DNA from: a virus
DNA length: 64,000 bases
IMG/VR virus record: IMGVR_UViG_3300045988_126669
Location: 33,217-97,216 of that record
Reading direction: 5' to 3' (one strand)
The position numbers and the translations under genes were made by a program. Under the pieces are notes generated by a model that saw only the letters and a list, made by a program, of their open reading frames with translations, made no database searches and was not told where the DNA came from. This document shows, piece after piece, positions 40,038 through 57,959 of this stretch. Within the stretch, counting starts at the first letter, position 1, and each line of letters starts with the position of its first letter.

Positions 40038-40042
40038 ACGAA

Positions 40043-42135: not shown

Positions 42136-42588
42136 ATGAAAGCTACTGGTATTGTTCGCAGAATTGATGACCTTGGACGTGTGGTCATTCCGAAAGAAAT
42201 TCGCCGGACTTTGAAGATTCGCGAGGGCGACCCGCTCGAAATCTTCATTGAAGACAATGACTGCGTTTGCTTCAAGAGGTATTCGGTGCTTGGCTCTTTG
42301 ACCGAAGAAGCTCTGCGAGTTGCTATCACAATGGCATCAAATTCCGGTCTGCGTCCCATCGCAATCTATGACACTACCGTGAAACTGCGGGGCATGGAAA
42401 ACTTTCCGCCTTATGTTTCGACCCAGTGGGATTTTAAAAGAAAGCCGTTTGTTTTCAATAACACTTATGGCGTTTACCCAATTTGTGCGGACGGCGACCT
42501 TGTGGGTTATGCGGTTTGCGACCAGCAGGACATGGGTTGCGAAATGGACATGATTGTCCGCTACCTCAGCATTGTGTCTGAACGTTAA
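42136..42588 (+). CDS. AbrB/SpoVT-family transition-state regulator homolog (150 aa)
   Basis: The N-terminus GIVRRIDDLGRVVIPKEIRRTLKIREGDPLEIF closely matches the AbrB swapped-hairpin DNA-binding domain. Own promoter GGGCTTGACAAAAACC..TATACT. Confidence 0.7.
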   Translation: MKATGIVRRIDDLGRVVIPKEIRRTLKIREGDPLEIFIEDNDCVCFKRYSVLGSLTEEALRVAITMASNSGLRPIAIYDTTVKLRGMENFPPYVSTQWDFKRKPFVFNNTYGVYPICADGDLVGYAVCDQQDMGCEMDMIVRYLSIVSER

Positions 42589-42664
42589 AAAAATAGCACA
42601 AGGGACTTGACAAAACAAGTCCCTTGTGCTACAATAAAAGCATCAAAGGAAAGAGGTAAATAAA

Positions 42665-42844
42665 ATGGAAATTGAAAAGACATTTCGGGTTGATTACAGC
42701 GGTAAAAATCCTTGGGACCAGTATTATGATAATCGGGTTCGTTTTTACTCCGAAGAAGAAGCTGATGCTTTTATCCAAAAGTTGATGGAAGATGAAAATA
42801 TCTATCAGATTTTCAAAACCATTACTACCAGCTATAACAGATAA
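42665..42844 (+). CDS. hypothetical 59-aa protein
   Basis: Own promoter GGGACTTGACAAAACAAG..TACAAT. RBS AAAGAGG. Terminator 42851-42880. Confidence 0.45.
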   Translation: MEIEKTFRVDYSGKNPWDQYYDNRVRFYSEEEADAFIQKLMEDENIYQIFKTITTSYNR

Positions 42845-42885
42845 AATTTGAGGTGAAAATTCACCTCATTTTTTTTAGTTATTTT

Positions 42886-43071
42886 GCCTATTGACAAAAA
42901 TCCAATAGTGAGATAAAATGGCCGGCCGTTTGCGCCTGCCACGGCCGGAATTTCCATTATACCACCATCTCAGCAATTTGTCAATAGGAAATTTAGCCAA
43001 AAGTCCAACTAATTATTTTCCCGAATTTGGGTATTTTACCAATAGACAAGAATGTAATAATCTGCTATACT
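42886..43071 (+). promoter_or_regulatory. module copy 4: IR-flanked promoter (TTGACA 42891 / TAAAAT 42914), GC hairpin 42920-42948 + AATTTCCATTATACC, then P2 (TAGACA 43043 / TATACT 43066)
   Basis: cctattgacaa...ttgtcaatagg inverted repeat as in copy 1. Confidence 0.55.
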
Positions 43072-43102
43072 ATGGATACAGTAAAGAAAGGGGATACAAA
43101 CA

Positions 43103-43366
43103 ATGTATTACACTCACGATTTTTCTACTGAAAAGTTCTCTACTCGCGGAGAATGTGTAGAAGAACTTCTTTCTTCTATGGATTCTCTTGATATTTCAGA
43201 GTTTATCGCCCATCGCGTTTCTCTTGCTGATATTATTGACGAACGCATGGCCCGCGACCCCGAGGACTTTTACGACTGGTTAGATAGAGAAATTCAGATT
43301 GCGACTAATACCTATCTTGAATGGCATATCAACGAACACTACGGTCATATAGAGGATTTAGAATGA
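43103..43366 (+). CDS. hypothetical protein (87 aa)
   Basis: Driven by module-4 P2. RBS AAAGGGGA. Confidence 0.55.
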   Translation: MYYTHDFSTEKFSTRGECVEELLSSMDSLDISEFIAHRVSLADIIDERMARDPEDFYDWLDREIQIATNTYLEWHINEHYGHIEDLE

Positions 43367-43506
43367 TTATTTTAATCGGCATTTTCGGCCTCGTTTTTGG
43401 CTTTATTTTTGCCTATTCCTGTGAAAGTCTCGGGTGGGACTCTTTCAATATCGTCTACGCTATTCCTGTGCTGATTTTGCTTAATTTCTTATCTTCCGTG
43501 TATTGA
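43363..43506 (+). CDS. 47-aa two-TM membrane peptide
   Basis: ATGA overlap. Hydrophobic. Confidence 0.4.
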   Translation: MIILIGIFGLVFGFIFAYSCESLGWDSFNIVYAIPVLILLNFLSSVY

Positions 43507-43597
43507 GAAAGACCGCAAAAATTTTGAAAAAAACACTTGACAAGCAAATCCAATAGTGGTATAATACAAGCATAGTAAAGGAAAGAGGTAAACACCT

Positions 43598-43891
43598 ATG
43601 AGTAAACCGAAAACTTATGAGTATGAGGGAAGAACCTTTGAGGTCAAGGCATACAGCGGAGATGAGTATGGGGCTTTCTTATTCATCTATGTCTATGAAG
43701 TTATCCGCCCTACCCGCAAATTCTTTGGTCGAACTCGGTTCTTTTGCGAGGACTTTGTTCTTCTTGACCAATATCTTTCTATTGATGACGCAGTAAAAGA
43801 TGTCATCGCACGGGGTCTTTGGCAGGAAGAATATAAAAAGTTTGCCGAAGATAAATGGAAAGAATGGACAAATAAAGTGAGAAATTGCTAA
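43598..43891 (+). CDS. hypothetical protein (97 aa)
   Basis: Own promoter ACTTGACAAGC..TATAAT. Confidence 0.55.
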   Translation: MSKPKTYEYEGRTFEVKAYSGDEYGAFLFIYVYEVIRPTRKFFGRTRFFCEDFVLLDQYLSIDDAVKDVIARGLWQEEYKKFAEDKWKEWTNKVRNC

Positions 43892-43959
43892 AATTTCTCT
43901 TGACAACCGCGCAGACGTATGGTATAATACAGATACAGTAAAGGAAAGGGGTAATACCT

Positions 43960-44460
43960 ATGAAAATCACTTACATCAAGTCCCACGTTGTGGCTACTCG
44001 ACGTTCCATCAACTTTGACATGGACGGCACTATCGCTGACCTCTACGGCGTCAAGGATTGGCTTGCACTTCTCCGTTCGGAAAATCCTAAGCCCTATCGA
44101 ACTGCTGTTCCCATGTGCAATATGGCTGAACTGAATGAGGTTTGCGAACTTCTCCGCGCCGAGGGCTGGGAAATCAACATCATCACTTGGCTTTCCAAAG
44201 ATTCGAGCGAGGAATACAAAAACCTCGTGCGTGAAGCAAAGCGCGCGTGGCTTGAAGAACAGGGCTTCCACTATGACCACTTCCACGGCGTCCAGTATGG
44301 CGCGACTAAGGCCGACAGCGTGCGCGACCGCTATGACGTGTCCATCTTGGTTGACGATAATGAAAAGGTTCGGAATGGTTGGCACTTGGGCGAAACCATT
44401 GACCCGACCGCAGTAAACATTATCGAAAAACTTTCGGAACTTTTGGAGAAAAGGGCTTGA
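43960..44460 (+). CDS. HAD-superfamily 5'(3')-deoxyribonucleotidase-like phosphatase (166 aa)
   Basis: Motif I FDMDGTIAD, and a later ILVDDN motif. Own promoter CTCTTGACAACC..TATAAT. Confidence 0.55.
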   Translation: MKITYIKSHVVATRRSINFDMDGTIADLYGVKDWLALLRSENPKPYRTAVPMCNMAELNEVCELLRAEGWEINIITWLSKDSSEEYKNLVREAKRAWLEEQGFHYDHFHGVQYGATKADSVRDRYDVSILVDDNEKVRNGWHLGETIDPTAVNIIEKLSELLEKRA

Positions 44461-44515
44461 CAAAGCCCTACTCCAATGGTATAATAAATACATCAAATGA
44501 AAAGGAGAAAATAAA

Positions 44516-44722
44516 ATGGTTATTCTTTTAATTCTGCTGTCTCTCGCAGTTTCGTTCCTGCTTACCTCTGGTCTGGTTTGGCTTCTCTGCTGGCTTCTTC
44601 CCGCCCTCGGTATCACCGCAATCGGCACTTTCGTCATCGTGTTCTCGTGGAAGCTGGCACTCGCAATTTGGATTATTCTCGTGCTTTTGCAGTCCATCTT
44701 CTCGGTCGGTTCAAAGAGGTGA
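44516..44722 (+). CDS. 68-aa membrane protein
   Basis: Own promoter. RBS AAAGGAGAAAA. Confidence 0.5.
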   Translation: MVILLILLSLAVSFLLTSGLVWLLCWLLPALGITAIGTFVIVFSWKLALAIWIILVLLQSIFSVGSKR

Positions 44723-44727
44723 TAAAA

Positions 44728-44871
44728 ATGATGCCTTATTTTTGGGTTGATATTGGAATCATCGGAAAAGTAGTTGAAAAGATTGATGACGACCTTTTCA
44801 TCTATGAAACCGTTATCACCAAAGAACGCGCGACCGTGACCGCAAAATGGGTCAAGGAACATCTGCTTTAA
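44728..44871 (+). CDS. 47-aa hypothetical protein
   Basis: RBS AGAGGTGATAAAAATG. Confidence 0.4.
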   Translation: MMPYFWVDIGIIGKVVEKIDDDLFIYETVITKERATVTAKWVKEHLL

Positions 44872-44887
44872 GAGAGGAGAAATAAAA

Positions 44888-45145
44888 ATGAAAGTAAATT
44901 TTGGCACTAAGGGTCAGCTCCAAATTATCAACATTCTCAGCGGTGGCACGTTCACCACTCTGCGCTCCAACGGTAGCGGTATGGGAATGTATCTCAAAAT
45001 TGACAGCAACAACAACACGCCGTTTGTCCGGTCGAGAGGTTCGCAGTATTGCTACGCGGTGAATCTTGAAACGGGTCAGGTTCGCGAGTTTTCGCGCGAC
45101 AAGATGGTGACGCCGGTCAAGACCGAGGTCAATGTGATTGGCTAA
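44888..45145 (+). CDS. hypothetical protein (85 aa)
   Basis: RBS AGAGGAGAAATAAAAATG. Terminator 45150-45181. Confidence 0.55.
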   Translation: MKVNFGTKGQLQIINILSGGTFTTLRSNGSGMGMYLKIDSNNNTPFVRSRGSQYCYAVNLETGQVREFSRDKMVTPVKTEVNVIG

Positions 45146-45190
45146 AAGAAAATCTCCCCAAAAATGGGGAGATTTTTTTTGTTTACTTTG

Positions 45191-45377
45191 ACTATTGACA
45201 AAATCATCTGAATGTGATATAATGGGCCGGCCGTTTCCGCGCGCTACGGCCGGAATTTACCATTATACACCCCGCCAGCATTTTTGTCAAGAGAAATTTT
45301 GCACAAATTTCAATTTTATTTTTTCCCGTTATTTAGCTATTTTACCAATAGACAAATCAGTATCAATCTGCTATACT
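45191..45377 (+). promoter_or_regulatory. module copy 5: promoter (TTGACA 45195 / TATAAT 45218), GC hairpin 45224-45252 + AATTTACCATTATAC, TTTTGCACAAATTTC box, then P2 (TAGACA 45349 / TATACT 45372)
   Basis: Conserved blocks. Confidence 0.55.
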
Positions 45378-45382
45378 ACATA

Positions 45383-45496
45383 ATGTCAGGAGGAAAGAGT
45401 AAGATCTTCGGAAAGGCAGTTCCCTTGACCATTATACCAAAATCCGACGGAATGTTCCAAGCGTGGCGTGCCGAACAAACTTTCAAAAAAGTTTGA
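45383..45496 (+). CDS. leaderless micro-ORF MSGGKSKIFGKAVPLTIIPKSDGMFQAWRAEQTFKKV (37 aa)
   Basis: The ATG is 5 nt after the P2 -10 box and there is no SD. ATGTCAGGAGG family. Confidence 0.35.
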   Translation: MSGGKSKIFGKAVPLTIIPKSDGMFQAWRAEQTFKKV

Positions 45497-45564
45497 AAAA
45501 CCCCTTGACAAACCGTTCTACGTAGGGTATAATGAATACATCAAATGAGAGAGGTAAAAACAAG

Positions 45565-45594
45565 ATGACTTCTAATGCTCGCCCACCGCCTTAA
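45565..45594 (+). CDS. leader micro-ORF MTSNARPPP*
   Basis: Promoter CCCTTGACAAACC..TATAAT. RBS GAGAGG. Poly-Pro then stop. Confidence 0.35.
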   Translation: MTSNARPPP

Positions 45595-45655
45595 AAACTA
45601 ATGGTTTATTGAATTGGATTGGATTAAGATTATAGATAAAGGTAGGTATAAACAA

Positions 45656-45688
45656 GATGTATAGTAATAAACCTCGCGACCGCCCCTA
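45656..45688 (+). CDS. leader micro-ORF MYSNKPRDRP*
   Basis: RBS AAAGGTAGG. Ends Arg-Pro-stop (TnaC-like). Confidence 0.35.
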
Positions 45689-45787
45689 AAAAAAATTGCA
45701 AAAACTATTGACAGCCTGCTCCGCCTATGATATAATAACTACATTAAAGACAAGGGCAGTCTTAAAAACCAGAAAGGAATTGATACT

Positions 45788-46168
45788 ATGGCTACTTCTA
45801 CTTCTACCACTAAGAAGCTCACCAAGCGCGACCGTTTTGAGGCTCTGCTCAAAATGAGCGAGGTTCAGGCAAATCCTGATATGGTGGCGTTCATCGAGCA
45901 TGAGATTGAACTGCTCGCCAAGAAGAACGCGGGCGACAAGAAGCCCACGGCCAAGCAGATGGAGAATGACGCTGTGAAGCAGGTCATTCTGGACGAGATG
46001 ACCGCGAACCCCGACAAGCTGTATACCGTAACCGACCTCATCAAGACCGTTCCCGAACTCGCGGAGTATACCAATCAGCGCGTTTCCGCTCTTCTGCGTC
46101 AGATGATTGACGCCGGTTCGGTTGTCAAGACGGTTGACAAGCGCAAGTCCTACTTCTCCCTCGCGTAA
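45788..46168 (+). CDS. hypothetical protein (126 aa), paralog of 48467..48844
   Basis: About 65% identity to the 48467 gene. Both carry the conserved GAAAGGAATTGATACTATG leader. Confidence 0.6.
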   Translation: MATSTSTTKKLTKRDRFEALLKMSEVQANPDMVAFIEHEIELLAKKNAGDKKPTAKQMENDAVKQVILDEMTANPDKLYTVTDLIKTVPELAEYTNQRVSALLRQMIDAGSVVKTVDKRKSYFSLA

Positions 46169-46310
46169 AGGAAAAAGGGCAGGGGATAAAAAAATCCCCT
46201 GCCCTGCAAAAAAAACTGTTGACAAACCAATAGCAAAGTGATATACTATGTATAGAGATTGAGAGAACGATGGTAAACCTCAATCTACTTTTCCAATAGG
46301 AGACGATAAA

Positions 46311-47087
46311 ATGGGTATTGATAGGCGCAAAAACTACGGCATTATGCTGGACACGGAAACCGCAAACACCATTCAGGACGGCGATAAGCTGGATATGTCA
46401 AATGTACTTCCCTACGACTTCGGCTGGGCGGTCATTGATTCCAAGGGAAATGTTTATGAAACTCATTCTTTTGTGAATCGCGACATTTTCTGCTACGAGC
46501 GCGACCTCATGCGGTCTGCCTACTACGCCGACAAGATTCCTCGCTACATTGAGGATATTCAAAACGGCACTCGCATTATGGCTGACCTTTACGAAATTCG
46601 TCTTGCGTTCTGCGAATGTGTCGAGCGCTACAACTGCTCTTTTGTGTGCGCTCATAATATGCGGTTCGACCTTAACGCCTGCAACAACGCGCAAAGATGG
46701 GACACGAAAAGCAAGTATCGCTATTTCTTCCCCTACGACCTCGAAATTTGGGACACGTTGAAAATGGCGCGTCAGGTTATCGGTAAAATGCCTACTTACC
46801 GCGACTATTGCGAAAAGAACGGCTACAAGACCAAGAACGGACAGCTCCGTTTCACCGCAGAAATTCTCTATCGCTTTATCAGCGGTGAGGACAACTTTGA
46901 TGAATCCCACACGGGATTAGAAGATGTTCTCATTGAAGTTGAGATTCTGCGCTACTGCGTCCGACAGCACAAGGAAATGGACAAGTCCCTTTTCAAAACT
47001 CCCACGGTGAAGCGTCCCAAGCCTACCGAGTTTCAGCGTGCGCTCATGCGAAACATTAAGGAAAATCCTATGATAAACATGAGCTAA
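46311..47087 (+). CDS. DEDDh-family 3'-5' exonuclease (DnaQ/RNase T-like), 258 aa
   Basis: Exo I MLDTETAN, Exo II HNMRFDLN, Exo III SHTGLEDVLIEVEIL. The 5'UTR carries the conserved hairpin gattgagagaacgatggtaaacctcaatc. Confidence 0.7.
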   Translation: MGIDRRKNYGIMLDTETANTIQDGDKLDMSNVLPYDFGWAVIDSKGNVYETHSFVNRDIFCYERDLMRSAYYADKIPRYIEDIQNGTRIMADLYEIRLAFCECVERYNCSFVCAHNMRFDLNACNNAQRWDTKSKYRYFFPYDLEIWDTLKMARQVIGKMPTYRDYCEKNGYKTKNGQLRFTAEILYRFISGEDNFDESHTGLEDVLIEVEILRYCVRQHKEMDKSLFKTPTVKRPKPTEFQRALMRNIKENPMINMS

Positions 47088-47166
47088 AAAAAAATAGGGG
47101 AATAGGGCTTGACAAGTCCTATTCCCTATGGTATAATCAATGTATCAAATGAAAGAGGTGTTTCAC

Positions 47167-47445
47167 ATGAACGCTAAACAAGTCCTTTTTGTAGTCCCTG
47201 ATGACAATGACCCTCACATGGGCATTTTAATCGACCATGACTATATTATCTGCGCCGAGTGCGGTGGCGTCTTTGAAGCTGATGAAGTTTTCATTATTCA
47301 GACCTACGACTCTTGGGTAAATTTTGAAGATGAAATTGCGGACGAGCTTGACCTGCTGACTGCAAAAGACATTGGCAAGGAGCTGGATAGCAAGGAAAAG
47401 TTCGGCTGGGACGCGTGGAAAGAAGCCATTAAGGGGGAGTTTTGA
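47167..47445 (+). CDS. hypothetical protein (92 aa, CxxC)
   Basis: Own promoter GGGCTTGACAAGTCC..TATAAT. RBS AAGAGG. Confidence 0.5.
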   Translation: MNAKQVLFVVPDDNDPHMGILIDHDYIICAECGGVFEADEVFIIQTYDSWVNFEDEIADELDLLTAKDIGKELDSKEKFGWDAWKEAIKGEF

Positions 47446-47447
47446 AA

Positions 47448-47687
47448 ATGGATTTAGATTTTAATTACATGACTGACGAGGAACTGGACGAACTCATTCT
47501 CCAAATACAAGAAGCCAGAAAAGCCCGCGCAGAAAGCCGAAAGATTGACCTTTGGAACAATGTTCGGCGGTCGGTTCAGAATTACATCATGGAATGTGGA
47601 ATGATTGAACTCTTTACCGAGGACTACAATTCCACGCTGGACGCTGATTCTTTCAGGATTCCCGGCGAGATTAACCTGCTGGACTAA
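47448..47687 (+). CDS. hypothetical protein (79 aa)
   Basis: RBS AAGGGGGAG. Terminator 47695-47725. Confidence 0.5.
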   Translation: MDLDFNYMTDEELDELILQIQEARKARAESRKIDLWNNVRRSVQNYIMECGMIELFTEDYNSTLDADSFRIPGEINLLD

Positions 47688-47730
47688 AATAAAAAACTAC
47701 CCAAAATTGGGTAGTTTTTTTTGTCTATTT

Positions 47731-47919
47731 TGTCTATTGACAAACGCGGATTTTTGTGATAAAATGGGCGGACCGCCAGCGTACGCAGCGGTCCGAATTT
47801 TCCATTATATCACGCCCCGCCAATTTTGTCAAGAGAAAAATTGCACAAAAGTGAAGAAAATTTTTTCCCGTAATTTGGTTATTTTGTCAATTGCAATCTA
47901 CGGGCAATCTGCTATAATA
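47731..47919 (+). promoter_or_regulatory. module copy 6: promoter (TTGACA 47736 / TAAAAT 47759), GC hairpin 47765-47794 + AATTTTCCATTATATCAC, AAATTGCACAAAAG box, then P2 (TTGCAA 47891 / TATAAT 47914)
   Basis: Conserved blocks. Confidence 0.55.
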
Positions 47920-47923
47920 GATA

Positions 47924-48022
47924 ATGTCAGGAGGGAACAGTGAATTGCCGAACGGCTTCGCTGATGGGTGTGATAACTCGGTAACTGACCCGTTTTCAAA
48001 GAAATTTGAAATTCCCTCTTGA
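47924..48022 (+). CDS. leaderless micro-ORF MSGGNSELPNGFADGCDNSVTDPFSKKFEIPS
   Basis: The ATG is 5 nt after the -10 box. Confidence 0.3.
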   Translation: MSGGNSELPNGFADGCDNSVTDPFSKKFEIPS

Positions 48023-48051
48023 CAAGTAGTGCGAAAAGTGCTACAATAGAT

Positions 48052-48126
48052 AATGTCAAGAGGACAGAGCCGTTGTACGCTCAATTGTGAGATAAGAACT
48101 CTGAAAAAAATTTATAAAACCTCTTG
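48052..48126 (+). CDS. leaderless micro-ORF MSRGQSRCTLNCEIRTLKKIYKTS
   Basis: TTGACA 48018-17-TACAAT 48041, with the ATG 5 nt after the -10 box. Confidence 0.3.
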
Positions 48127-48157
48127 ACAAACCCCAGCGAGTGTGCTACAATAGAAA

Positions 48158-48277
48158 ATGTCGAGAGGGAGTAACCCAAGAAATCCGAGGGCGCGCGACT
48201 TTGAGAAAGTATAGGAAGTAAACATAATACACCACGTTGTAAAGCCAAACGTTGAACGCGAAAGTGAGTTTGATTGA
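48158..48277 (+). CDS. leaderless micro-ORF MSRGSNPRNPRARDFEKV(TAG)EVNIIHHVVKPNVERESEFD
   Basis: TTGACA 48124-17-TACAAT 48147, with the ATG 5 nt after the -10 box. Has an in-frame TAG. Confidence 0.25.
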
Positions 48278-48466
48278 ACCAACTATCCTTGACGCGGTTT
48301 TCCGCTGACAAATAGATTGAATCAACAAACAATAAATTATCCGTCAGGTCGGGGTAGTAATTCGTGTGAAAAGTTTGCGAAACCTCTTGACAAACACTCC
48401 AAAGTGTGGTATACTCAATAATATCAAAAGGGTAGCGACCTACCGCCAAAGAAAGGAATTGATACT

Positions 48467-48844
48467 ATGTCTACTTCTACTGTTAAGAAGCTCACCAAGC
48501 GCGACCGTTTCGAGGCTCTGCTCAAACTGTCCGAGGTTCAGGCTGACCCTGCTATGGTTGAGTTTATCAACCACGAAATCGACCTGCTGTCCCGCAAGAA
48601 CGCCGGTGACAAGAAGCCGACCGCGAATCAGATTGCCAACGACGGCTACAAGGACATTATCTTTGCCGAGCTGTCCGCGAATCCTGACAAGCTGTATACC
48701 GTGACCGAACTCATCAAGAACGTGGACGGTCTGGGCGACCTCACCAATCAGCGCGTTTCCGCTCTTCTGCGTCAGATGATTGAAGCGAACGGCGTCGAGA
48801 AGATTGTGGACAAGCGCAAGTCCTACTTCCGTCTCGCCCACTGA
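48467..48844 (+). CDS. hypothetical protein (125 aa), paralog of 45788..46168
   Basis: Promoter CTCTTGACAAACAC..TATACT. Terminator 48850-48890. Confidence 0.6.
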   Translation: MSTSTVKKLTKRDRFEALLKLSEVQADPAMVEFINHEIDLLSRKNAGDKKPTANQIANDGYKDIIFAELSANPDKLYTVTELIKNVDGLGDLTNQRVSALLRQMIEANGVEKIVDKRKSYFRLAH

Positions 48845-48944
48845 TTCAGGGGGAGCGCCTGAAAAAAATCAGGCGCTCCCAAAAATTTCTCTTGACATTT
48901 GCTGACGGCGGTGTTATAATCATACTTGAAAGGGGGCAAAAGAA

Positions 48945-49352
48945 ATGCCTAAAATGAGTAAAAAAGACTTTCAGGCAAAGATTGATAATCTGATGAAAAA
49001 GTTAGATTGTACTGCCGAGGAAGCAAAAGAAATTCTCATGGACGATGATGACATTGACCATGGAATCGCCAAGGACTTTGACCTGTCCGCGGAAAAGCTC
49101 AAAGAAGCTAACAAGTATTCTAAAACCGGAACACGCAAAGCGCCGACCGCTTATAAGTTTGAGAAGCGACAGCGCAAGGAAAACCCCACAAAACGCTCGA
49201 TTATTGCTGAACTTGCGACTTTTTTGCGAGAAAACAGCGAAAATGCGTGCGAAAATGTGGAAATCACGAACATTGAGCGCATGATTGCGTTCCATGTGGG
49301 CGAAAATGACTATGAATTGACCCTGATTCAGAAGCGAAAGCCCAAAAATTGA
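48945..49352 (+). CDS. hypothetical protein (135 aa)
   Basis: Promoter TCTCTTGACATTTG..TATAAT. RBS AAAGGGGG. Terminator 49355-49398. Confidence 0.55.
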   Translation: MPKMSKKDFQAKIDNLMKKLDCTAEEAKEILMDDDDIDHGIAKDFDLSAEKLKEANKYSKTGTRKAPTAYKFEKRQRKENPTKRSIIAELATFLRENSENACENVEITNIERMIAFHVGENDYELTLIQKRKPKN

Positions 49353-49475
49353 CAAAAAAGGGTGAAAAACCGCTGAAAAATGCGGTTTTTCACCCAAAAA
49401 CAAGTCAAAAAATGCAAAAAATAATGGTTGAGAGAACGATGGTAAACCTCAATCAATAGAGAGGATTTTGTGCCG

Positions 49476-49886
49476 ATGGAAGAAATTACTATTAAGCTAC
49501 GCCGATTTAAGGACGGCAGACCGCCCGTTTCAATGGAGTTTATGCCTAATTGTGGCGAGAATCTGAAAGACGTTCAAGCGGTCTACTTTTTCAAGTTTTA
49601 CAACAACAACAAACTTGAATTTAACAAGGTAGGCACTTCCGCAAAAGACGTTGTAGGGCGTTTGCGTGATGAAATTGGCGAGTATGCAAAAAAGTATGCT
49701 ATCACGCGCGTTGAAATTCATCGAATCCGTTCTTGCGGGGATTATCCCGCCGAGGGCGCGGAAAGCGCGTTGCGTGCGGAACTGATTAGACGCTATCCCA
49801 AAGCGTTCCGCAAGAATGACCGCTTTTTTAATGTGGACATTAACCCCACGGTTTTCGATGAAATTGTAAACGCATTTCTTGCATAA
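49476..49886 (+). CDS. hypothetical protein (136 aa)
   Basis: The 5'UTR has the conserved hairpin gttgagagaacgatggtaaacctcaatc (identical core to the one at 46258). Terminator 49895-49930. Confidence 0.5.
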   Translation: MEEITIKLRRFKDGRPPVSMEFMPNCGENLKDVQAVYFFKFYNNNKLEFNKVGTSAKDVVGRLRDEIGEYAKKYAITRVEIHRIRSCGDYPAEGAESALRAELIRRYPKAFRKNDRFFNVDINPTVFDEIVNAFLA

Positions 49887-49937
49887 ATATTCAATCAGCA
49901 GGTTGACTAAAACCTGCTGATTTTTTTTGTGCATTTT

Positions 49938-50010
49938 GCCTATTGACACCGATCGGAAAATGTGGTATAATGGCCGGGCCGTCGCGGGACGTGCCGGCCC
50001 GATTTCCCGA
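49938..50010 (+). promoter_or_regulatory. module copy 7 (first half only): promoter (TTGACA 49943 / TATAAT 49966) + GC hairpin 49972-50001, flanked by CCGATCGG repeats
   Basis: Same promoter-hairpin arrangement. The downstream part diverges (CATATG inverted repeats). Confidence 0.45.
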
Positions 50011-50280
50011 TCGGTATACCCATATGCAAAATTTCTCATACTTCTAGCACCTCTCCATATGGCCCAAAAAAATCCCGAAAATTGACTTTTTATAAAAAAT
50101 ATGTTATAATGATAAAAAAAGACTTTTTTAAGCCCGCGTAGGATCATATGCCTTTATGATTAATTAAAAACTGCTTCGCCCTTACATTGTTTCACGCGTA
50201 TGTTTTCATTTAAAAAAATCTTGACATTTTTAAAAAAAAAGTATATAATATATATAGAAAATAAGAAAAGAGGTATTCAT

Positions 50281-50658
50281 ATGGATATGAATGATATTAT
50301 TGCTCGTCTGAAAAATGGTGAGGACGCTCAGGCTATTGCGGACGAAATGGCTAAGTCTCTGAACGATGCGGTTAAGCAGGTGGAGAAGGAAACCAAGCAG
50401 GCCGATCGGAAGACCGCGCTCGCGCAAGAAATCGCCGATCGGATTAACGAGTATGCCGCTCTTAATGGCTACAAGGATTCCGCGTTGACCGCGTCCGATG
50501 TGGAGAACATCTTTGCTGAGGTTTACGGTCTTATGACCGGGGTTAACGATCTTCTTGACGTGCTTTTTCCCAAGAGCACCCCGGTAAAGGTTAAGAAGGT
50601 CAAGAAAACCGATGATGATGTAATTGCCGAATTTTTGAACACTTTCATTAATAAGTGA
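50281..50658 (+). CDS. hypothetical protein (125 aa)
   Basis: Promoter TTGACA 50221-17-TATAAT 50244. RBS AAGAGG. Terminator 50735-50765. Confidence 0.55.
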   Translation: MDMNDIIARLKNGEDAQAIADEMAKSLNDAVKQVEKETKQADRKTALAQEIADRINEYAALNGYKDSALTASDVENIFAEVYGLMTGVNDLLDVLFPKSTPVKVKKVKKTDDDVIAEFLNTFINK

Positions 50659-50762
50659 ACAATGTGTAGGGTGAGATATTTTTCATCCTAAGAATCGACA
50701 ATTTCACCAAGAATTGCCTAATATGAAAAAAGAGAGACTAAAAAAAGTCTCTCTTTTTTTTT

Positions 50763-50907
50763 AGGTTCGGAGAACGGAGACGGGAAAATGTGGTTGGTGG
50801 TTGATTAAACCGATCGGCACCACACTCTCGCAATTTCTACGATTTCAACAATTTTAACCCGTCTCTTATGTTTACCTTACGGTAAAGATACATAGTATCC
50901 GAACCTT
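50763..50907 (+). ncRNA. structured ~145-nt element (nested stems ggttcgga/tccgaacc, gagacggg/cccgtctc, tttacc/ggtaaa) at the early-region/island boundary
   Basis: Long-range perfect complementarity. It follows a strong terminator. No ORF. Not a tRNA cloverleaf. Confidence 0.3.
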
Positions 50908-51049
50908 TTATTCCACGTCTTCCGAATTGTCCAAACCTTTAATTATTATCCAGAAGCGAATCAACCAATATAGATCTATTATCGATCTCTTCCAGCGTTC
51001 CATATGCAATATCCAACAGCAACACCAATTAAAAACCAAATAATACCAC

Positions 51050-51430
51050 TCATACAAGCAACTCCTCCAACTTTGTCTTAAACGCACTATCAAGAATGTC
51101 ATCAGCAAGCGTGCGCTTACTAAGATCCACATTTTCCGATCCAAGAGCAACAGTTTTCTCAGTATAATTATCTGCGGTCCGCTCTTCAATAACAGGTCTC
51201 ACATAGCTATATTCATTCTCAATATATTCAACTCTACCTTGCTCATTAATTCGACCAAGAACTTTACCATGAAAAACCAACTTATTACAATCGTCCCAAA
51301 TAAGATATGCGCCTCGCGTATCTTCCTTATTAAAAAACTCTTTTTTAGTAGTTGCAATTACATTCCAATTGCGGAAGACACCTACCTTTTCTCCATTATT
51401 CTCTTTTAAGGTTTTAGCATCAAATTTCAT
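51050..51430 (-). CDS. hypothetical protein (126 aa), AT-rich island
   Basis: RBS AAAAGGA. TGA stop. Confidence 0.45.
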   Translation of the reverse strand: MKFDAKTLKENNGEKVGVFRNWNVIATTKKEFFNKEDTRGAYLIWDDCNKLVFHGKVLGRINEQGRVEYIENEYSYVRPVIEERTADNYTEKTVALGSENVDLSKRTLADDILDSAFKTKLEELLV

Positions 51431-51579
51431 TTCATTATTCCTTTTCAAATTTTGATTTCATTTTCCTAAACGTTCCCCGGAATAGACACCCCTACTTTAC
51501 GCAGAAATAACCTACCCCGAGATTTCATTTCAAAATTATATTTCTTTCTTTTATTATATATATTATAATATATTATTTA

Positions 51580-51828
51580 TTAAATGTCAATTGACTCTTG
51601 TAAGAATGGATTCTCTTCTATTGATTCAGGTCTATCCTCATATTTTATTTTAATTGGTTTTGTATTACTTGGAATAACAAAATAAAGAATATCATCTCTC
51701 ATATATAATTCAGGTTTTATCATATTTGTTTTATCCATCTTATCAAACTATTCTTGCGTTCCTCTTACAAATCTTATTATTGAAGAATTGCCTTTCCCGC
51801 CTCTTATATCTGTATAACTATAACTCAT
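51580..51828 (-). CDS. hypothetical protein (82 aa, 1 TAG)
   Basis: ATG 51826-28, TAA 51580. Confidence 0.35.
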
Positions 51829-51831
51829 ATT

Positions 51832-52536
51832 TTACTCCTTATTTTTCTTGTAATCATTTCTAAATACATATTCTTTTTTAAGCCCTTCTATATTGCACTA
51901 TGGCTTATATAAAGTAATTAAAGCTAATTCCATTGCTTCTAAATCTCTTACTGTAATATTAAAATCAGTCTTTAAATTTTCAACTATAATTAAAGGTTTT
52001 AACATAATAGTTCTATTACTTTCTTTAGCTGACTATAATATTTTATATAATTCAGTTTTATCTTCAAAATTTCTACTATTCATAAACTATTTATGCTATC
52101 CAAATCTTGTTCCAAAATTTTTATTTGTTTTACCAATATAAATTAAAATATTATCTATATAAATACCATAAATACCGTGCTAATAATAAAGAGGATCTTT
52201 AGTCTAACGTCTCTTTTTAACTGAAGATTCTTCCACCTAACCTGGAATTTTCTTTTTAATTACTTTATATTTTCGAGGAACTTCTCTTTTAATTATCTGC
52301 TATTCTTCTTTTTGTTGTGATAATTTAGTTAAAGATAAATATTCTCTTATAGTTTTTTCTTTTGTTAAAATATAAGAATCTTTTATATCATATTTACTTC
52401 TATCTTTTTCTATATCTTCTATAATATCATTATAATTTTCATTATTAGACATTCTTTCTAATAAAATATATGTGTCATTCCGTATACTATGACCTATTAT
52501 TTTTTCCCATTCTGCTTTTAACATTTGTTTATTCAT
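51832..52536 (-). CDS. GIY-YIG homing endonuclease-like protein (234 aa, ~9 in-frame TAG)
   Basis: ...YYQHGIYGIYIDNILIYIGKTNKNFGTRFGQHK... matches the GIY-x10-YIG + Arg motifs, followed by ...LEAMELALITLYKPQCN (Glu/Asn). Continuous only with TAG=sense. Confidence 0.6.
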
Positions 52537-52559
52537 CACCTTTTGTTCATTTATAAGTC

Positions 52560-52765
52560 TTGCAAAAACTGTAGATTTTTTGCAAACTTGTTTGCAAAAA
52601 TTCCTTAAATTGCAAATTTGCAAACTTGTTTGCAAAAATTTTGCATTTTTGTATATTATATATTGCTTTGTGCAAAATGCAAAAATCATTGTAAATTGCA
52701 CAAATTTGTAATTGCAAATTGTTGCAATATTGCAAGTTTTGCAACAAAATTTTTGCAAAATTGCA
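52560..52765. repeat. dense array (>15 copies) of palindromic TTTGCAAA / TTGCAA(A/T) motifs
   Basis: gcaaaaactgtagattttttgcaaacttgtttgcaaaaattccttaaattgcaaatttgcaaacttgtttgcaaaaattttgca...attgcacaaatttgtaattgcaaattgttgcaatattgcaagttttgcaacaaaatttttgcaaaattgcaa. Intergenic between the HTH gene and the GIY-YIG gene. Confidence 0.7.
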
Positions 52766-52766
52766 A

Positions 52767-53168
52767 TTAAAATACAAATTCTATATCTTTTTCCTTACGC
52801 TTTTTCCATCCTTCACTATGATCTACAGAACTTTTACTAATACCCAACTCTTCAGATATCTAAGTAGAATTCATACCATTTTTAGCTAAATTATAAATTT
52901 CATTATCATCAACTACTCTTTTACGACCATAATTATTTCCATTATTTATTTTATTTATATAGTCCTATTTACTTTTTTCAATAGCACCTTTAACAAAATT
53001 CAAACCCATAGCAACAACAGGGTCATCTTGAAATTGAGGTTCATTACCGGTTCCATATTGAACCATATCATATATAATTTTCATTTGTTGTTCATTAGGT
53101 AAGCCTTTAATGTTTTCTAACCACTCGCCATAAAATACAAATCTATGTAAATCCTTTGTATTATCCAC
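52767..53168 (-). CDS. HTH DNA-binding protein (133 aa; HTH NSTQISEELGISKSSV), 2 TAG
   Basis: GTG after a GGGAGGG RBS. I walked the frame through TAGs at 52965 and 52860 to TAA 52767. Confidence 0.5.
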
Positions 53169-53361
53169 GCGGTTTCCCCTCCCCCTAAACCTCCTCAAAG
53201 TCAGCTAAAAAGCTCTCATCGACGGAGAATATCCAACAATTATATTGCGGGAACTTCGGGTTCGGCATCATCTACAAAGGGAAATGTCCTCTTTCCACTA
53301 ATTTTTCCATTACTTTAAGAGAATATACTATCATATTCTTCTTTGTATTTTGATTTTCCAT
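53161..53361 (-). CDS. hypothetical 66-aa protein (2 TAG)
   Basis: RBS AAGGAAGG + ATG. Exactly 67 codons to TAA. Confidence 0.35.
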
Positions 53362-53378
53362 TTGTTCAATACCTTCCT

Positions 53379-53513
53379 TTATTTGCTATGATTTGCTATA
53401 TATTCTTTAAGCGCTTGTCTTACAATATAAGACAAACTCAAATCTAATTCTTTCCCCATCTCAGTGAGAATATCTTTATCACTCTATGAAATTCTAATTG
53501 TCATAGTAGTCAT
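53379..53513 (-). CDS. ribbon-helix-helix (CopG/Arc-like) regulator, 44 aa
   Basis: MTTMTIRISQSDKDILTEMGKELDLSLSYIVRQALKEYIANHSK is a beta-strand followed by two helices. One TAG. Confidence 0.5.
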
Positions 53514-53599
53514 ATCACCATTATTCAATTTATTCACATCCTTTCATTAATACATAAAAATACTTCTTACAACTTTATCTTAATTTGTCCTACAAAATT

Positions 53600-53678
53600 A
53601 TTCTTTATTGATTTTTATTAAATTTTAATATATAATATAAATATAAAATAAAGAAAAACTATTAAAGGTGATAAAAAA
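53600..53678 (+). promoter_or_regulatory. AT-rich promoter region (TTGATT..TATATAATATAAATATAAAATAAAG) for the rightward third block
   Basis: Related to the class-III modules at 56.4, 59.6, 60.7 and 62.7 kb. Confidence 0.35.
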
Positions 53679-53876
53679 ATGCTTGCTAAACTTATTGATA
53701 ATCAAGGTCAAACTCATATCCTTAATACGACTCATATTCATTCAATTTCCGTAAAGAATTCTGGATCGGATAAACTTGTGATGATTTTTTGGGATAATGA
53801 AGCAAAAACCGCGTATTATGTAAGACCCACTGAGTATAGCACTTTTATCAATACTATTTTTAAGGAGGACAAGTAA
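53679..53876 (+). CDS. hypothetical protein (65 aa)
   Basis: RBS AAAGGTGA. Confidence 0.5.
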   Translation: MLAKLIDNQGQTHILNTTHIHSISVKNSGSDKLVMIFWDNEAKTAYYVRPTEYSTFINTIFKEDK

Positions 53877-53877
53877 T

Positions 53878-57054: not shown

Positions 57055-57953
57055 ATGGGAAAATATAAAGATATAAGTGGTTAGAAATTTGGACGTCTAA
57101 CTGCTTTAGAAATAGATGTAGAAAAAACTAAAACACATAGTTCTACTTATTGGAAATGTTAGTGTGATTGTGGTAATATAAAGAGTATTAGTTTAAATAG
57201 ACTAAGAAATGGTAGCACCAAATCCTGCGGTTGTTATAGGAAAGAAGTAGCAAGTAATAATACCAAAAAAGATTTAGTAGGCCAAAAATTTGGACGTTTA
57301 ACTGTTATTAAAGATTCTGGTAAGAGAAAAGATAACCGTATTATTTGGGAATGCCAATGCGAATGTGGTAATATTGTTTATTATCCAACTAACAATTTAA
57401 CCACTGGAAATGCATAGTCTTGTGGGTGTTTACATAAAGAAATAGTAGCTAATTTAACTAAAAAAGATTTAACTGGTTAGCGTTTTGGTAAATTAACTGT
57501 ATTATTTGAACAATCTGAAAGAAAAAATAATCGTATTATTTGGCATTGTCGATGTGATTGTGGTAATGAATGTGATACTTCAAGTAAATCTTTATTAAGT
57601 GGAAGAAAAATTTCTTGTGGTTGTTTAAAAACATCTCTTGGAGAATACCGCATAAGTAATATTTTATCTGAAAATAATATTGCTTATATTAAGGAATATA
57701 AATATAAAAATTTAGGTAATTTAAGATATGACTTTTATTTACCTGATTATAATAGATTAATTGAATTTGACGGAGAACAACATTTTATGGAAGTTCCTAC
57801 TTGGGGAGAATTAGAAGCTACACAAAAACGAGATAAAATAAAAAATGATTATGCTTTATCTCATAGTATTCCTTTAGTAAGGATCCCTTATTGGGAACGT
57901 GATAACATTACTTTAGACTTATTACTTGGTAATAAATATTTACAAAAGGAGTG
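57055..57953 (+). CDS. homing-endonuclease-like protein (299 aa): three zinc-ribbon repeats (GQ[KR]FG[RK]LT..W.C.C[DE]CGN..SCGC) + a C-terminal PD-(D/E)xK DUF559/Vsr-like domain; 4 in-frame TAGs at 57082, 57160, 57415, 57478
   Basis: RBS TAAGGAGGA + ATG. There is no ORF in the standard code. With TAG=Gln the three repeats align, with CAA Gln at the equivalent position (57283). The C-terminus reads RYDFYLPDYNRLIEFDGEQHF. Confidence 0.6.
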
Positions 57954-57959
57954 ATACTA

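What the first reader, a model, noticed from the sequence alone, without database searches (positions are those of the whole stretch)
50760..53680. AT-rich minus-strand island: GIY-YIG homing endonuclease + RHH/HTH regulators flanking a dense TTTGCAAA palindrome array
A ~2.8-kb segment interrupts the rightward early genes. It runs on the opposite strand, is AT-rich and uses TAG as sense. It encodes a CopG-like RHH protein, a 66-aa protein, an HTH protein, a GIY-YIG endonuclease and two small proteins. Between the HTH gene and the GIY-YIG gene lie >15 copies of the self-complementary octamer TTTGCAAA/TTGCAAA in 200 bp. Related TTTGCACAAA(TTT) boxes sit in every punctuation module. The island may therefore encode a regulator that binds both its own array and the modules. 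The compositional break, the endonuclease and the structured element at 50763-50907 suggest a mobile insertion.
Basis: partly seen in the sequence, partly recalled or inferred. Interest (0 to 1): 0.7.

Follow-up and report, generated by a model that had tools for sequence, protein, structure and literature searches.

The report
Phage DNA-binding protein with site array
A small gene cassette in a large gut phage that reads TAG as an amino acid encodes an uncharacterised DNA-binding protein (DUF6291 plus helix-turn-helix) followed at once by 16 copies of its own short binding site; this is most likely the phage's replication origin with its initiator, and a mobile GIY-YIG nuclease gene has inserted beside it.

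Summary
On the minus strand, with TAG read as sense, lie an RHH gene, a 66-aa gene, a DUF6291+HTH gene, a 211-bp array, a GIY-YIG gene and two small genes. The array holds 16 TGCA cores: 12 TTGCAA but only 5 exact TTTGCAAA. No other 210-bp window holds more than 3.

In all 39 related loci, an array starts at the stop codon of the DUF6291-HTH gene. Three independent lineages changed the residue before the conserved His of the recognition helix (D/N to Q, Y or E). Their arrays changed from TTGCAA to TTGTAA/TTGTACAA. So the HTH protein, not the RHH, reads the array.

The cassette is syntenic, not a recent insertion. Only the GIY-YIG gene is mobile: it is a precise ~700-bp indel, closest to T4 EndoII. 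The TTTGCACAAA promoter boxes do not covary with the array.

A sibling phage has, at the same locus, a dual winged-helix protein resembling the iteron initiators pi and RctB. Seven 20-bp iterons flank that gene. DUF6291 also heads annotated replisome-organizer proteins. All close homologues end in an acidic F-x-F tail that resembles the SSB tip.

Best reading: replication origin plus initiator (about 0.45). Main rival: an operator array over an embedded promoter (about 0.3).

The parts
53514..53678 (.). AT-rich divergent control region between the RHH gene and the plus-strand 65-aa gene. It contains no TTGCAA site.
   Evidence: Sequence. A plus-strand TTGATT-17-TATAAT lies at 53608-53636, and only weak minus-strand promoter candidates are present. 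The AT-rich stretch is conserved in L054.
53379..53513 (-). 44-aa ribbon-helix-helix protein (CopG/Arc-like), with 1 in-frame TAG. It is the optional first gene of the cassette.
   Evidence: Pfam RHH_1 5.3e-7 and DUF6290 6.8e-7. PHROG Arc-like repressor 5e-5. NCBIfam ORF56 plasmid copy-control 2.5e-6, below its cut-off. Detectable in 17 of 29 cassettes.
53161..53361 (-). 66-aa protein 'B' with no family hit. It is the conserved partner gene, and its stop overlaps or abuts the start of the DUF6291-HTH gene.
   Evidence: No hit in Pfam, PHROG or NCBIfam. Found directly upstream of the DUF6291-HTH gene in 27 of 29 cassettes.
52767..53168 (-). DUF6291 + tri-helical HTH protein of 133 aa from GTG 53168 (150 aa if from ATG 53219). 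It ends in the acidic tail ...KDIEFVF. This protein reads the array.
52671..52766 (.). Gene-proximal arm of the array, with 9 TGCA-core sites. It starts at the stop codon of the DUF6291-HTH gene.
   Evidence: The same position is seen in 39 of 39 related loci.
52646..52670 (.). AT-rich core of the array (GCAATATATAATATACAAAAA). With the TTGCAT site at 52677-52682 it reads as a minus-strand sigma-70-like promoter, TTGCAT-16-TATAAT. It corresponds to the conserved dyad core ATTGTACAAATCTATCTTATATCTTACAAT of distant relatives.
   Evidence: The core keeps its sequence in L083 although the flanking sites changed.
52560..52645 (.). Distal arm of the array, with 7 TGCA-core sites. It includes two copies of the 20-bp palindrome TTTGCAAACAAGTTTGCAAA.
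51832..52536 (-). GIY-YIG endonuclease gene of 234 aa (230 aa if from ATG 52524), with 8 in-frame TAG. An N-terminal domain of unknown function precedes a C-terminal T4 EndoII-like nuclease domain. It is a mobile, optional insert between the array and the 82-aa gene.
   Evidence: PDB 2WSH 3e-3 with the single sequence and 1.3e-7 with the profile. PHROG 1111 endonuclease 1.3e-5. PF01541 in 16 of 37 homologues. Precise indel against L003 and L010. Always in this position when present.
51580..51828 (-). 82-aa protein 'E' of unknown function. In relatives without the GIY-YIG gene it is the first gene after the array.
   Evidence: No family hits.
51562..51590 (-). Perfect sigma-70 consensus promoter TTGACA-17-TATAAT, reading into the 126-aa gene.
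   Evidence: 12 of 12 matches.
51050..51430 (-). 126-aa protein 'F'. It is TAG-free, has higher GC, and its function is unknown.
   Evidence: Conserved in L003, L010, L054 and L065.
50979..51053 (-). 24-aa hydrophobic peptide (MSGIIWFLIGVAVGYCIWNAGRDR). Its start overlaps the stop of F (ATGA).
   Evidence: Read from the sequence. Conserved in L054, L003 and L010.
50763..50907 (-). Structured non-coding element at the 3' end of the minus-strand block. Only the part nearest the terminator is conserved.
   Evidence: MFE -49.2 kcal/mol, z -5.6. No Rfam match. Alignment A3.
50726..50762 (.). Bidirectional hairpin terminator (AAAAAAGAGAGAC-N7-GTCTCTCTTTTTT) shared by the converging plus-strand and minus-strand units.
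   Evidence: Sequence. Invariant in relatives.

Best explanation
Shown:
- The cassette is a conserved, self-contained specificity module. Its core is the 66-aa protein, the DUF6291-HTH protein and, starting at that gene's stop codon, an array of 9-20 short sites.
- The site is TTGCA, usually as the palindrome TTGCAA. Two arms of sites flank a conserved AT-rich dyad core.
- The C-terminal HTH of the DUF6291 protein reads these sites.

Inferred:
- The array is the phage's replication origin, or one of its origins, and the DUF6291-HTH protein is its origin-binding initiator or organizer.
- Many copies coat both arms, and the AT-rich core between them is the place that opens.
- The invariant acidic F-x-F C-terminal tails, which resemble the SSB tip and the tails of T7 gp2.5 and gp4, recruit replication proteins.
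- The upstream RHH acts like CopG, as the autoregulator of the operon.
- Because the genes contain in-frame TAG, the module can be made only once TAG is read as an amino acid.

The GIY-YIG gene is a separate selfish passenger: a free-standing, EndoII-like endonuclease gene inserted between the array and the next gene.
For: 1. Binding
- In 39 of 39 loci an array follows the gene's stop codon.
- The 35 loci with a [DN]-H recognition helix have TGCA arrays. One of them, L056, is mixed: 9 TGCA and 9 TGTA/TACA.
- The 3 independent lineages with Q-H, Y-H or E-H (L003/L066, L016, L083) have TGTA/TACA arrays with 0-1 TGCA.
- P0030 has an N-terminal domain nearly identical to the window's and differs mainly in the HTH.

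2. Single target
- Outside the array TTGCAA is depleted: 17 copies, where about 34 are expected for the whole window.
- No second cluster exists in the 64 kb.

3. Module swap
- L054 has flanks collinear with the window at 85-94% identity. Window 52526-53877 is replaced there by a 216-aa gene with 7 copies of a 20-bp iteron, 5 upstream and 2 downstream.
- Most functionally named BFVD matches are replication initiators or replisome organizers.

4. Domain link
- DUF6291 is the N-terminal domain of the Riemerella phage RAP44 'phage replication protein/primosomal protein', whose gene lies a few genes after a YqaJ-type exonuclease gene and close behind an SSB gene.
- In that protein type DUF6291 is fused to a C-terminal domain that matches 'replisome organizer / replication initiation O-like' proteins.

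5. C-terminal tail
- All 53 close homologues end in F-x-F, and 48 of them have an acidic residue just before it.
- 42 of 110 family representatives end in F. Some end in DDDDIPF or DDCIPF.

6. RHH
- Its best NCBIfam match is the ORF56 plasmid copy-control protein, below the cut-off.
Against: - No direct evidence of initiation exists.
- GC skew is confounded by gene class and says nothing either way.
- The array core also reads as a sigma-70-like promoter pointing at the downstream genes. In many relatives a hairpin and an RBS follow it, which is what a promoter-operator region looks like.
- The HTH belongs to a fold common in transcription factors.
- The sites are 5-8 bp with irregular 7-29 bp spacing. 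Classical iterons are 17-22 bp and phased.
- The N-terminal domain has no structural match, and no family member carries a fused helicase-loader or primase domain.
- The replication labels of RAP44 and the other phages are database annotations, not experiments.
- Equivalent function of the two swapped modules is an inference.
Confidence: 0.45

Rival explanations
1. Operator array, not an origin. The DUF6291-HTH protein is a transcription factor. By coating both arms it represses or activates the promoter embedded in the array core. This times expression of the downstream genes (82-aa E and its neighbours, plus GIY-YIG where present). Swapping and respecification of the module would then resemble the heteroimmune repressor/operator cassettes of lambdoid phages.
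For: - A TTGCAT-16/17-TATAAT or TATCTT promoter-like element sits at a conserved position in the core and points downstream.
- Its -35 position is itself a binding-site variant, and it changes to TTGTAA in L003.
- In many relatives a hairpin and an RBS follow the distal arm. CTTCG outnumbers CGAAG 21 to 8, which hints at an RNA-level feature.
- The HTH fold resembles LuxR/GerE, sigma region 4 and phage repressors.
- The RHH is Arc-like.
Against: - 9-20 sites per locus is far more than ordinary operators use.
- The downstream genes differ between relatives while the array does not.
- The sibling module looks like an iteron initiator.
- DUF6291 is linked to replisome organizers.
- The conserved acidic F-x-F tail has no obvious role in a repressor.
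- The two roles are not exclusive, since initiators often also regulate transcription.
Confidence: 0.3
2. Another single-locus nucleoprotein site. The array could be a centromere-like partition site or the plasmid-prophage replicon of a phage-plasmid. In that case the P1-like incC-repA-incA layout of the sibling module would be a maintenance replicon. Alternatively the array could be a packaging-recognition site.
For: - Dense arrays of 6-8-bp sites bound by small proteins are typical of ParR/parC, omega and ParG centromeres (general knowledge).
- The sibling module has a '5 iterons, rep gene, 2 iterons' layout like P1.
- The cassette points against the early genes, as maintenance or immunity modules often do.
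Against: - No ParA, ParM or TubZ-type NTPase, integrase or terminase gene lies next to the cassette in any locus.
- All cassette genes contain in-frame TAG (12 in the sibling 216-aa gene). This fits poorly with expression in a standard-code lysogen. Integrases of recoded prophages avoid such codons (bioRxiv 10.1101/2021.08.26.457843).
- Small terminases carry their HTH at the N-terminus and sit beside TerL.
Confidence: 0.1
3. The whole 2.8-kb island is a mobile insertion carried by the GIY-YIG homing endonuclease. Its RHH or HTH regulator binds both its own array and the TTTGCACAAA boxes of the early 'punctuation modules'.
For: - The GIY-YIG gene is real and mobile.
- TTTGCACAAA is enriched: 5 exact copies against 0.33 expected. 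One copy lies in the array core.
Against: - The cassette is syntenic in all relatives sampled.
- GIY-YIG is absent from 23 of 29 cassettes.
- The module boxes stay TTGCACAAA in L003 and L016, where the array and the helix changed.
- The boxes occur in only 4-7 of about 40 promoter modules.
Confidence: 0.05

Closest known systems
Phage origin/initiator pairs: lambda O with ori-lambda, SPP1 G38P with oriL (replisome organizers)
   Same: - A DNA-binding protein has multiple copies of its site in or right next to its own gene, beside an AT-rich stretch.
- Specificity co-evolves with the sites, and the unit is exchanged as a cassette between related phages.
- DUF6291 heads proteins annotated as replisome organizers.
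   Different: - The sites here are 5-8 bp, irregularly spaced and 9-20 in number, and they lie entirely downstream of the gene.
- The binding domain is a C-terminal tri-helical HTH.
- There is no O-like or DnaD-like C-terminal domain, only an acidic F-x-F tail.
- No sequence homology to O or G38P was detected.
Iteron plasmid and phage-plasmid replicons: R6K pi, Vibrio RctB, P1 RepA with incC/incA
   Same: - The sibling phage's replacement module (L054) has a dual winged-helix protein structurally closest to pi and RctB over its full length.
- 20-bp iterons lie on both sides of that gene.
   Different: - That module is in the sibling phage, not in this window.
- The window's protein is unrelated in fold.
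pMV158 CopG-RepB operon and ORF56 of pRN1 (RHH copy control ahead of the initiator gene)
   Same: A small RHH is encoded first in the same operon as the presumed initiator. It hits RHH_1/CopG and ORF56.
   Different: - The RHH is missing or replaced in 12 of 29 cassettes.
- Its operator is unknown.
- The ORF56 score is below the curated cut-off.
Arrays of short repeats bound by small proteins: omega of pSM19035, ParR/parC, ParG
   Same: Many closely packed 6-8-bp sites in either orientation surround a promoter and are bound cooperatively by a small protein.
   Different: - Those binders are RHH proteins acting with a partition ATPase.
- Here the binder is an HTH protein and no NTPase gene is nearby.
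T4 endonuclease II (DenA) and free-standing GIY-YIG homing endonucleases (Seg proteins, I-TevI)
   Same: - The GIY-YIG catalytic residues are present, and the best solved relative is EndoII.
- The gene is intergenic, optional, and a precise presence/absence insert at one site.
   Different: - The nuclease domain is C-terminal, behind a conserved ~110-aa domain of unknown function.
- No NUMOD or IENR1 DNA-binding module is present.
- Its target is unknown.

Membership tests
GIY-YIG nuclease superfamily | GIY and YIG motifs plus the catalytic Arg, Glu and Asn, recognised by a family profile | tested here: met
   G117, Y119, G120, Y129, G131, R140, E199 and N211 are invariant in 37 homologues. 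The profile hits 2WSH at 1.3e-7 and 1MK0 at 0.019. PF01541 matches 16 of 37 members. The window protein alone gives no Pfam hit.
Free-standing homing endonuclease gene | Sporadic presence or absence at one fixed site among close relatives | tested here: met
   A precise ~700-bp indel against L003 and L010. Present in 6 of 29 type-A cassettes and in L054, always between the array and the next gene.
Free-standing homing endonuclease gene | Cleaves the endonuclease-free allele near the insertion site; has a separate DNA-binding module (NUMOD, IENR1 or similar) | tested here: inconclusive
   No known DNA-binding module was found in the N-terminal domain. Cleavage cannot be tested with these tools.
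Ribbon-helix-helix, CopG/Arc family | Pfam RHH_1 above the gathering score | tested here: met
   29.8 bits against 20.5. DUF6290 scores 29.8 against 27.
DUF6291 (PF19808) | Pfam model above the gathering score | tested here: met
   55.7 bits against 27.2, over residues 10-84. The function of the family is undescribed: no paper in the library mentions it.
Iteron-type replication origin with a cis-encoded initiator | Multiple binding sites for the adjacent gene's product | tested here: met
   Inferred from helix/motif covariation in 39 loci, with 3 independent switches. This is not a binding assay.
Iteron-type replication origin with a cis-encoded initiator | AT-rich unwinding element next to the sites | tested here: inconclusive
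   A conserved AT-rich dyad core lies between the arms. The whole region is about 25% GC, and the core also reads as a promoter.
Iteron-type replication origin with a cis-encoded initiator | Supports initiation (autonomous replication, replication bubbles, copy-number peak) | not testable with these tools
   GC skew is confounded by gene class. No read-depth data are available.
Iteron-type replication origin with a cis-encoded initiator | Initiator homologous to a known initiator family | tested here: not met
   There is no sequence or fold match of the window protein to Rep_3, O, DnaD or RepL. The only links are indirect: the DUF6291 fusion and the swap with a pi-like protein.
Type Ib/II partition centromere | Adjacent ParA, ParM or TubZ NTPase gene | tested here: not met
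   None appears in the precomputed Pfam annotation of any cassette neighbourhood returned.

The most novel reading that the evidence does not exclude
DUF6291-HTH proteins are a widespread, undescribed class of origin-recognition proteins: about 1,200 cluster representatives at E <= 1e-3. They work as a dense 'landing pad'. Monomeric HTHs read a 5-bp word repeated 9-20 times around an AT-rich core. Each copy displays an SSB-tip-like acidic F-x-F tail that recruits replisome or primosome proteins. Specificity can be reset by a single residue before the conserved His (D/N for TTGCA, Q/Y/E for TTGTA). In TAG-recoded phages, firing of this origin is gated by the switch of genetic code.
Probability: 0.25. 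Interest if true: 0.75.

Novelty: new variant of a known kind. Interest (0 to 1): 0.55.

Why it matters
- It gives a concrete, testable function to a domain of unknown function (DUF6291) that occurs in well over a thousand phage protein clusters.
- It supplies natural 'specificity-swap' pairs that predict which residue reads which base.
- It offers a candidate replication origin for a group of large (140-200 kb) TAG-recoded gut phages, probably infecting Lachnospiraceae, whose replication is otherwise unknown.
- If the origin reading holds, the in-frame TAG codons would tie the start of replication from this site to the change of genetic code. That extends the idea that recoding times late functions.
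- If the rival holds, this is an unusually large operator array and a clean case of cassette-wise exchange of regulator specificity.

Tried and rejected
- **tRNA and Rfam scans of the window:** nothing found. No suppressor tRNA lies in these 64 kb.
- **DNA and protein searches of GenBank phages and PLSDB plasmids with the island and its DUF6291-HTH protein:** no match.
- **Single-sequence scans of IMG/VR:** no relatives. An alignment was needed to find them.
- **Pfam on the GIY-YIG protein alone:** no hit. It would have been wrong to reject the GIY-YIG call on that result.
- **Domain fusions as a clue to function:** longer family members carry only DUF6291+HTH.
- **GC skew as an origin test:** the skew follows gene class, with AT-rich recoded genes strongly G>C, so it is uninformative.
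- **Regulon idea (array motif = module box):** rejected by lack of covariation.
- **Reverse search for TTGCAA triplets in IMG/VR:** Apart from one known relative (L194) it returned coding tandem repeats and unrelated regular 10-11-bp arrays, so it gives no statistics.
- **Repeats inside the DUF6291-type replication genes of RAP44 and L024:** only two- and three-copy families, not convincing.
- **Sibling 216-aa protein against phages and plasmids:** one marginal plasmid hit, unannotated.
- **afdb50 fold library:** unavailable.
- **Literature:** no paper mentions DUF6291. The phAss-1 group of recoded phages differs from this phage in GC content, 44.5% against about 27-47% here depending on region.


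Full report
**Source and context**

The window is part of a 161,175-bp metagenomic contig, ENA ERZ27260678 k99_20941. It has three parts.
- **1-31.5 kb:** minus-strand genes at 27-33% GC that are continuous only if TAG is read as sense. One example is a 2,768-codon ORF with 84 in-frame TAG.
- **32-50.7 kb:** plus-strand short genes at about 43% GC.
- **From 53.7 kb:** further plus-strand genes.

No tRNA or Rfam family was found in the window. No similar record exists among GenBank phages. Two related contigs sit in bins labelled Lachnospiraceae. The early promoters are TTGACA-17-TG-TATAAT, which fits a Firmicute host.

**Checking the observation**

The minus-strand block at 50.9-53.5 kb is real. 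With TAG as sense it encodes, in order of transcription:
- a 44-aa RHH protein (53379-53513);
- a 66-aa protein (53161-53361);
- a DUF6291+HTH protein (52767-53168 from GTG, or to 53219 from ATG);
- a 230-bp gap;
- a GIY-YIG protein (51832-52536);
- an 82-aa protein (51580-51828);
- a 126-aa protein (51050-51430);
- a 24-aa hydrophobic peptide (50979-51053).

RHH_1 and DUF6291 both pass Pfam's gathering scores.

The gap holds 16 TGCA cores in 211 bp. Twelve are TTGCAA and only five are the exact octamer TTTGCAAA. No other 210-bp window of the 64 kb has more than three TGCA, and simulations give a mean of 0.33 with a maximum of 4. Outside the array TTGCAA is under-represented: 17 copies, where about 34 are expected for the whole window.

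The 'AT-rich island' has the composition of the recoded majority of the genome. The GC-rich early block is the exception.

**GIY-YIG**

Pfam misses the window protein, but three other results confirm the assignment.
- Its C-terminal half aligns end to end with T4 endonuclease II: 2WSH at 3e-3 with one sequence and 1.3e-7 with a profile of 37 homologues.
- 16 of those 37 homologues hit PF01541.
- The canonical G-Y-G, Y-G, R, E and N residues are invariant.

Alignment with close relatives shows the gene is a precise ~700-bp presence/absence difference, lying between the end of the array and the ribosome-binding site of the 82-aa gene (L003 and L010). It is present in 6 of 29 cassettes and also in L054, always at that position. 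One distant relative (L016) has a different, N-terminal-type GIY-YIG gene there. This is the behaviour of a free-standing homing-type endonuclease gene. It is not a fixed part of the module.

**What the array belongs to**

Homologues of the DUF6291-HTH protein were collected from three sources:
- the protein collection;
- IMG/VR, genome bins and metagenomes;
- contig look-ups.

In all 39 loci, about 33 of them non-redundant, an array begins at or within a few bases of the gene's stop codon.

- **TGCA-type loci.** Thirty-five loci, down to 42% protein identity, have recognition helices S-K-[ST]-[SA]-[VI]-[DN]-H-x-x-G-W and arrays with 9-20 TGCA cores.
- **TGTA/TACA-type loci.** Three independent lineages have a different residue before the His. 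They are L003/L066 (GESTIQH), L016 (SAASIYH) and L083 (GKSTVEH). Their arrays are built from TTGTAA, TTACAA and TTGTACAA, with 0-1 TGCA and 19-29 TGTA/TACA.
- **A natural domain swap.** The L003-type protein is almost identical to the window's protein in its N-terminal domain and differs mainly in the HTH.
- **One mixed case.** L056 has both site types.

This is strong comparative evidence that the C-terminal HTH of this protein reads the array, probably through the word TTG[C/T]A.

The structure model is all-helical. Its last three helices match monomer-capable small HTHs: GcrA, the mycobacteriophage cluster-A repressor, and the resolvase and Tc3 HTHs. The N-terminal domain matches nothing.

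**Conserved anatomy**

The core of the cassette is the 66-aa gene (27 of 29 loci), the DUF6291-HTH gene and the array. The RHH is detectable in 17 of 29 loci and is replaced by other small proteins elsewhere.

Each array has a gene-proximal arm, a conserved AT-rich core and a distal arm.
- In distant relatives the core is ATTGTACAAATCTATCTTATATCTTACAAT.
- In the window the core is TTGCACAAAGCAATATATAATATACAAAAA.
- In many relatives a GC-rich hairpin and the next gene's RBS follow the distal arm.
- The core does not change where the flanking sites changed (L083), so something else recognises it.
- It reads as a sigma-70-like promoter pointing downstream: TTGCAT-16-TATAAT in the window, and TTGCAT-17-TATCTT or TTGTAC-17-TACAAT elsewhere. 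In many relatives it also reads as a promoter in the opposite direction.

The cassette always lies antiparallel to the gene blocks on both sides. It is therefore an old, syntenic feature, not a recent insertion.

**The promoter boxes**

TTTGCACAAA is enriched, with 5 exact copies against 0.33 expected. It lies upstream of a few early promoters. Two results count against a link to the array.
- The early block has about 40 near-consensus promoters, and only 4-7 of them carry the box.
- In L003 and L016, where array and helix changed, the module boxes remain TTGCACAAA.

The proposed regulon is not supported.

**Function: evidence for an origin**

1. **Module swap.**
   - A sibling phage (L054, 191-kb contig) is collinear with the window at 85-94% identity on both sides.
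   - It replaces window 52526-53877 with a 216-aa gene flanked by seven copies of a 20-bp iteron, TAGGTAATTTTT[C/A]ATAGTT: five upstream and two downstream. The same GIY-YIG, 82-aa and 126-aa genes follow.
   - In BFVD most functionally named matches are replication initiators or replisome organizers.
   - This protein family is common in 140-200-kb contigs, and no copy lies in the window.
2. **Domain link.** In ~40-kb phages DUF6291 is the N-terminal domain of ~300-aa proteins. Their relatives are annotated 'phage replication protein/primosomal protein' (Riemerella phage RAP44, whose gene lies a few genes after a YqaJ-type exonuclease gene and close behind an SSB gene). The C-terminal domain of these proteins matches 'replisome organizer / replication initiation O-like' proteins.
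3. **C-terminal tail.** Every close homologue ends in F-x-F, usually with an acidic residue just before it. 42 of 110 family representatives end in F, and some end in DDDDIPF or DDCIPF, which is the SSB tip motif. From general knowledge, acidic tails ending in Phe are how SSB, T7 gp2.5 and T7 gp4 recruit replication partners.
4. **Single target and copy-control-like RHH.** The protein has one target cluster in 64 kb. The RHH resembles plasmid copy-control proteins, although below the curated cut-off.

**Function: evidence against, and the main rival**

- Nothing here measures initiation.
- GC skew tracks gene class and is uninformative.
- The promoter-like core, the downstream hairpins and the transcription-factor-like HTH fit an operator array that times the downstream genes.
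- The sites are much shorter and less regular than classical iterons.
- The window protein is not homologous to any known initiator.

The two readings are not exclusive, because initiators commonly autoregulate and some phage origins need a promoter. My estimates are:
- about 0.45 for origin plus initiator;
- about 0.3 for a purely regulatory array;
- about 0.1 for other single-locus roles (centromere, plasmid-state replicon, packaging site);

In-frame TAG codons occur in all three regulator genes, and there are 12 in the sibling's 216-aa gene. Whatever the module does therefore needs TAG to be decoded. Recoding of replication genes is reported to vary between recoded phage clades (bioRxiv 10.1101/2021.08.26.457843).

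**Verdict**

The finding is a conserved protein-plus-site-array specificity module of an uncharacterised family, with a mobile GIY-YIG gene as passenger. It works like an initiator with its origin or a regulator with its operator array, and such cassettes are known kinds. The protein family, the site architecture and the tail are not described, so I rate it a new variant of a known kind, of moderate interest.

Noticed in passing
window 31500-51000: The early plus-strand block is packed with sigma-70 consensus promoters. 23 are perfect TTGACA-17-TATAAT (most with the TG extension) and about 19 more match 11 of 12. In total 101 promoter-like sites were found against 38.7 expected, roughly one consensus promoter per 450 bp. 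GC-rich hairpin terminators are interleaved. This block is also the only GC-rich (43%) and almost TAG-free part of the window.
   Followed up: partly
window 50763-50907 (and terminator 50726-50762): A strongly folding non-coding element (z -5.6 on the minus strand) with no Rfam match. Only the ~70 nt next to the bidirectional terminator are conserved in L054, L003 and L010; this part is a hairpin GTGTGGTG...CCGATCGG...CCACCAACCACA. The other half is an insertion specific to this genome that pairs with the conserved half.
   Followed up: partly
window 52767-52790 (C-terminus of the DUF6291-HTH protein); P0001-P0053, P0112-P0261: All close homologues end in F-x-F, usually with an acidic residue just before it. 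Distant family members have long low-complexity linkers and end in DDDDIPF or DDCIPF, like the SSB C-terminal tip. The binding partner is unknown.
   Followed up: partly
L054:3657-4999 (sibling phage, same locus): A non-orthologous replacement of the cassette: a 216-aa dual winged-helix protein with 12 in-frame TAG and seven 20-bp iterons. It is followed by a 16-bp-stem inverted repeat, GTTTGTATGATACAAA-N18-TTTGTATCATACAAAC, whose arms recall the TTGTA...TACAA ends of the type-A core.
   Followed up: partly
window 51562-51590 and 51050-51430: The 126-aa gene has its own perfect consensus promoter, contains no TAG and has higher GC than the rest of the island. It is probably expressed separately, and early, from the recoded genes upstream. 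A 24-aa hydrophobic peptide is translationally coupled to it through an ATGA overlap.
   Followed up: no
window 57055-57954: A TAG-recoded 299-aa protein with three repeats of GQKFGRLTV...W.C.C.CGN and, judged by eye, a C-terminal endonuclease-like domain. It looks like another homing-endonuclease-type insert and is absent from L003. A second observation by eye: the 258-aa protein at 46311-47087 looks like a DnaQ-type exonuclease.
   Followed up: no
window 53679-53876: The 65-aa plus-strand gene next to the cassette is absent from the sibling L054. There the same AT-rich promoter and RBS lead straight into the 112-aa gene. This is a small indel at the cassette border.
   Followed up: no
L134:1995-2250, L135:3938-4060, L099:5959-6060, L092:2569-2700: Other viral contigs carry regular 9-11-bp tandem arrays containing TTGCAA but have no DUF6291-HTH gene nearby. 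These are presumably binding arrays of unrelated proteins.
   Followed up: no
arrays of 27 related loci (400 bp after the gene): CTTCG occurs 21 times against 8 for its complement CGAAG. Several hairpins after the distal arm are capped by UUCG-like loops, which weakly hints that this strand is transcribed and that the RNA structure matters.
   Followed up: partly
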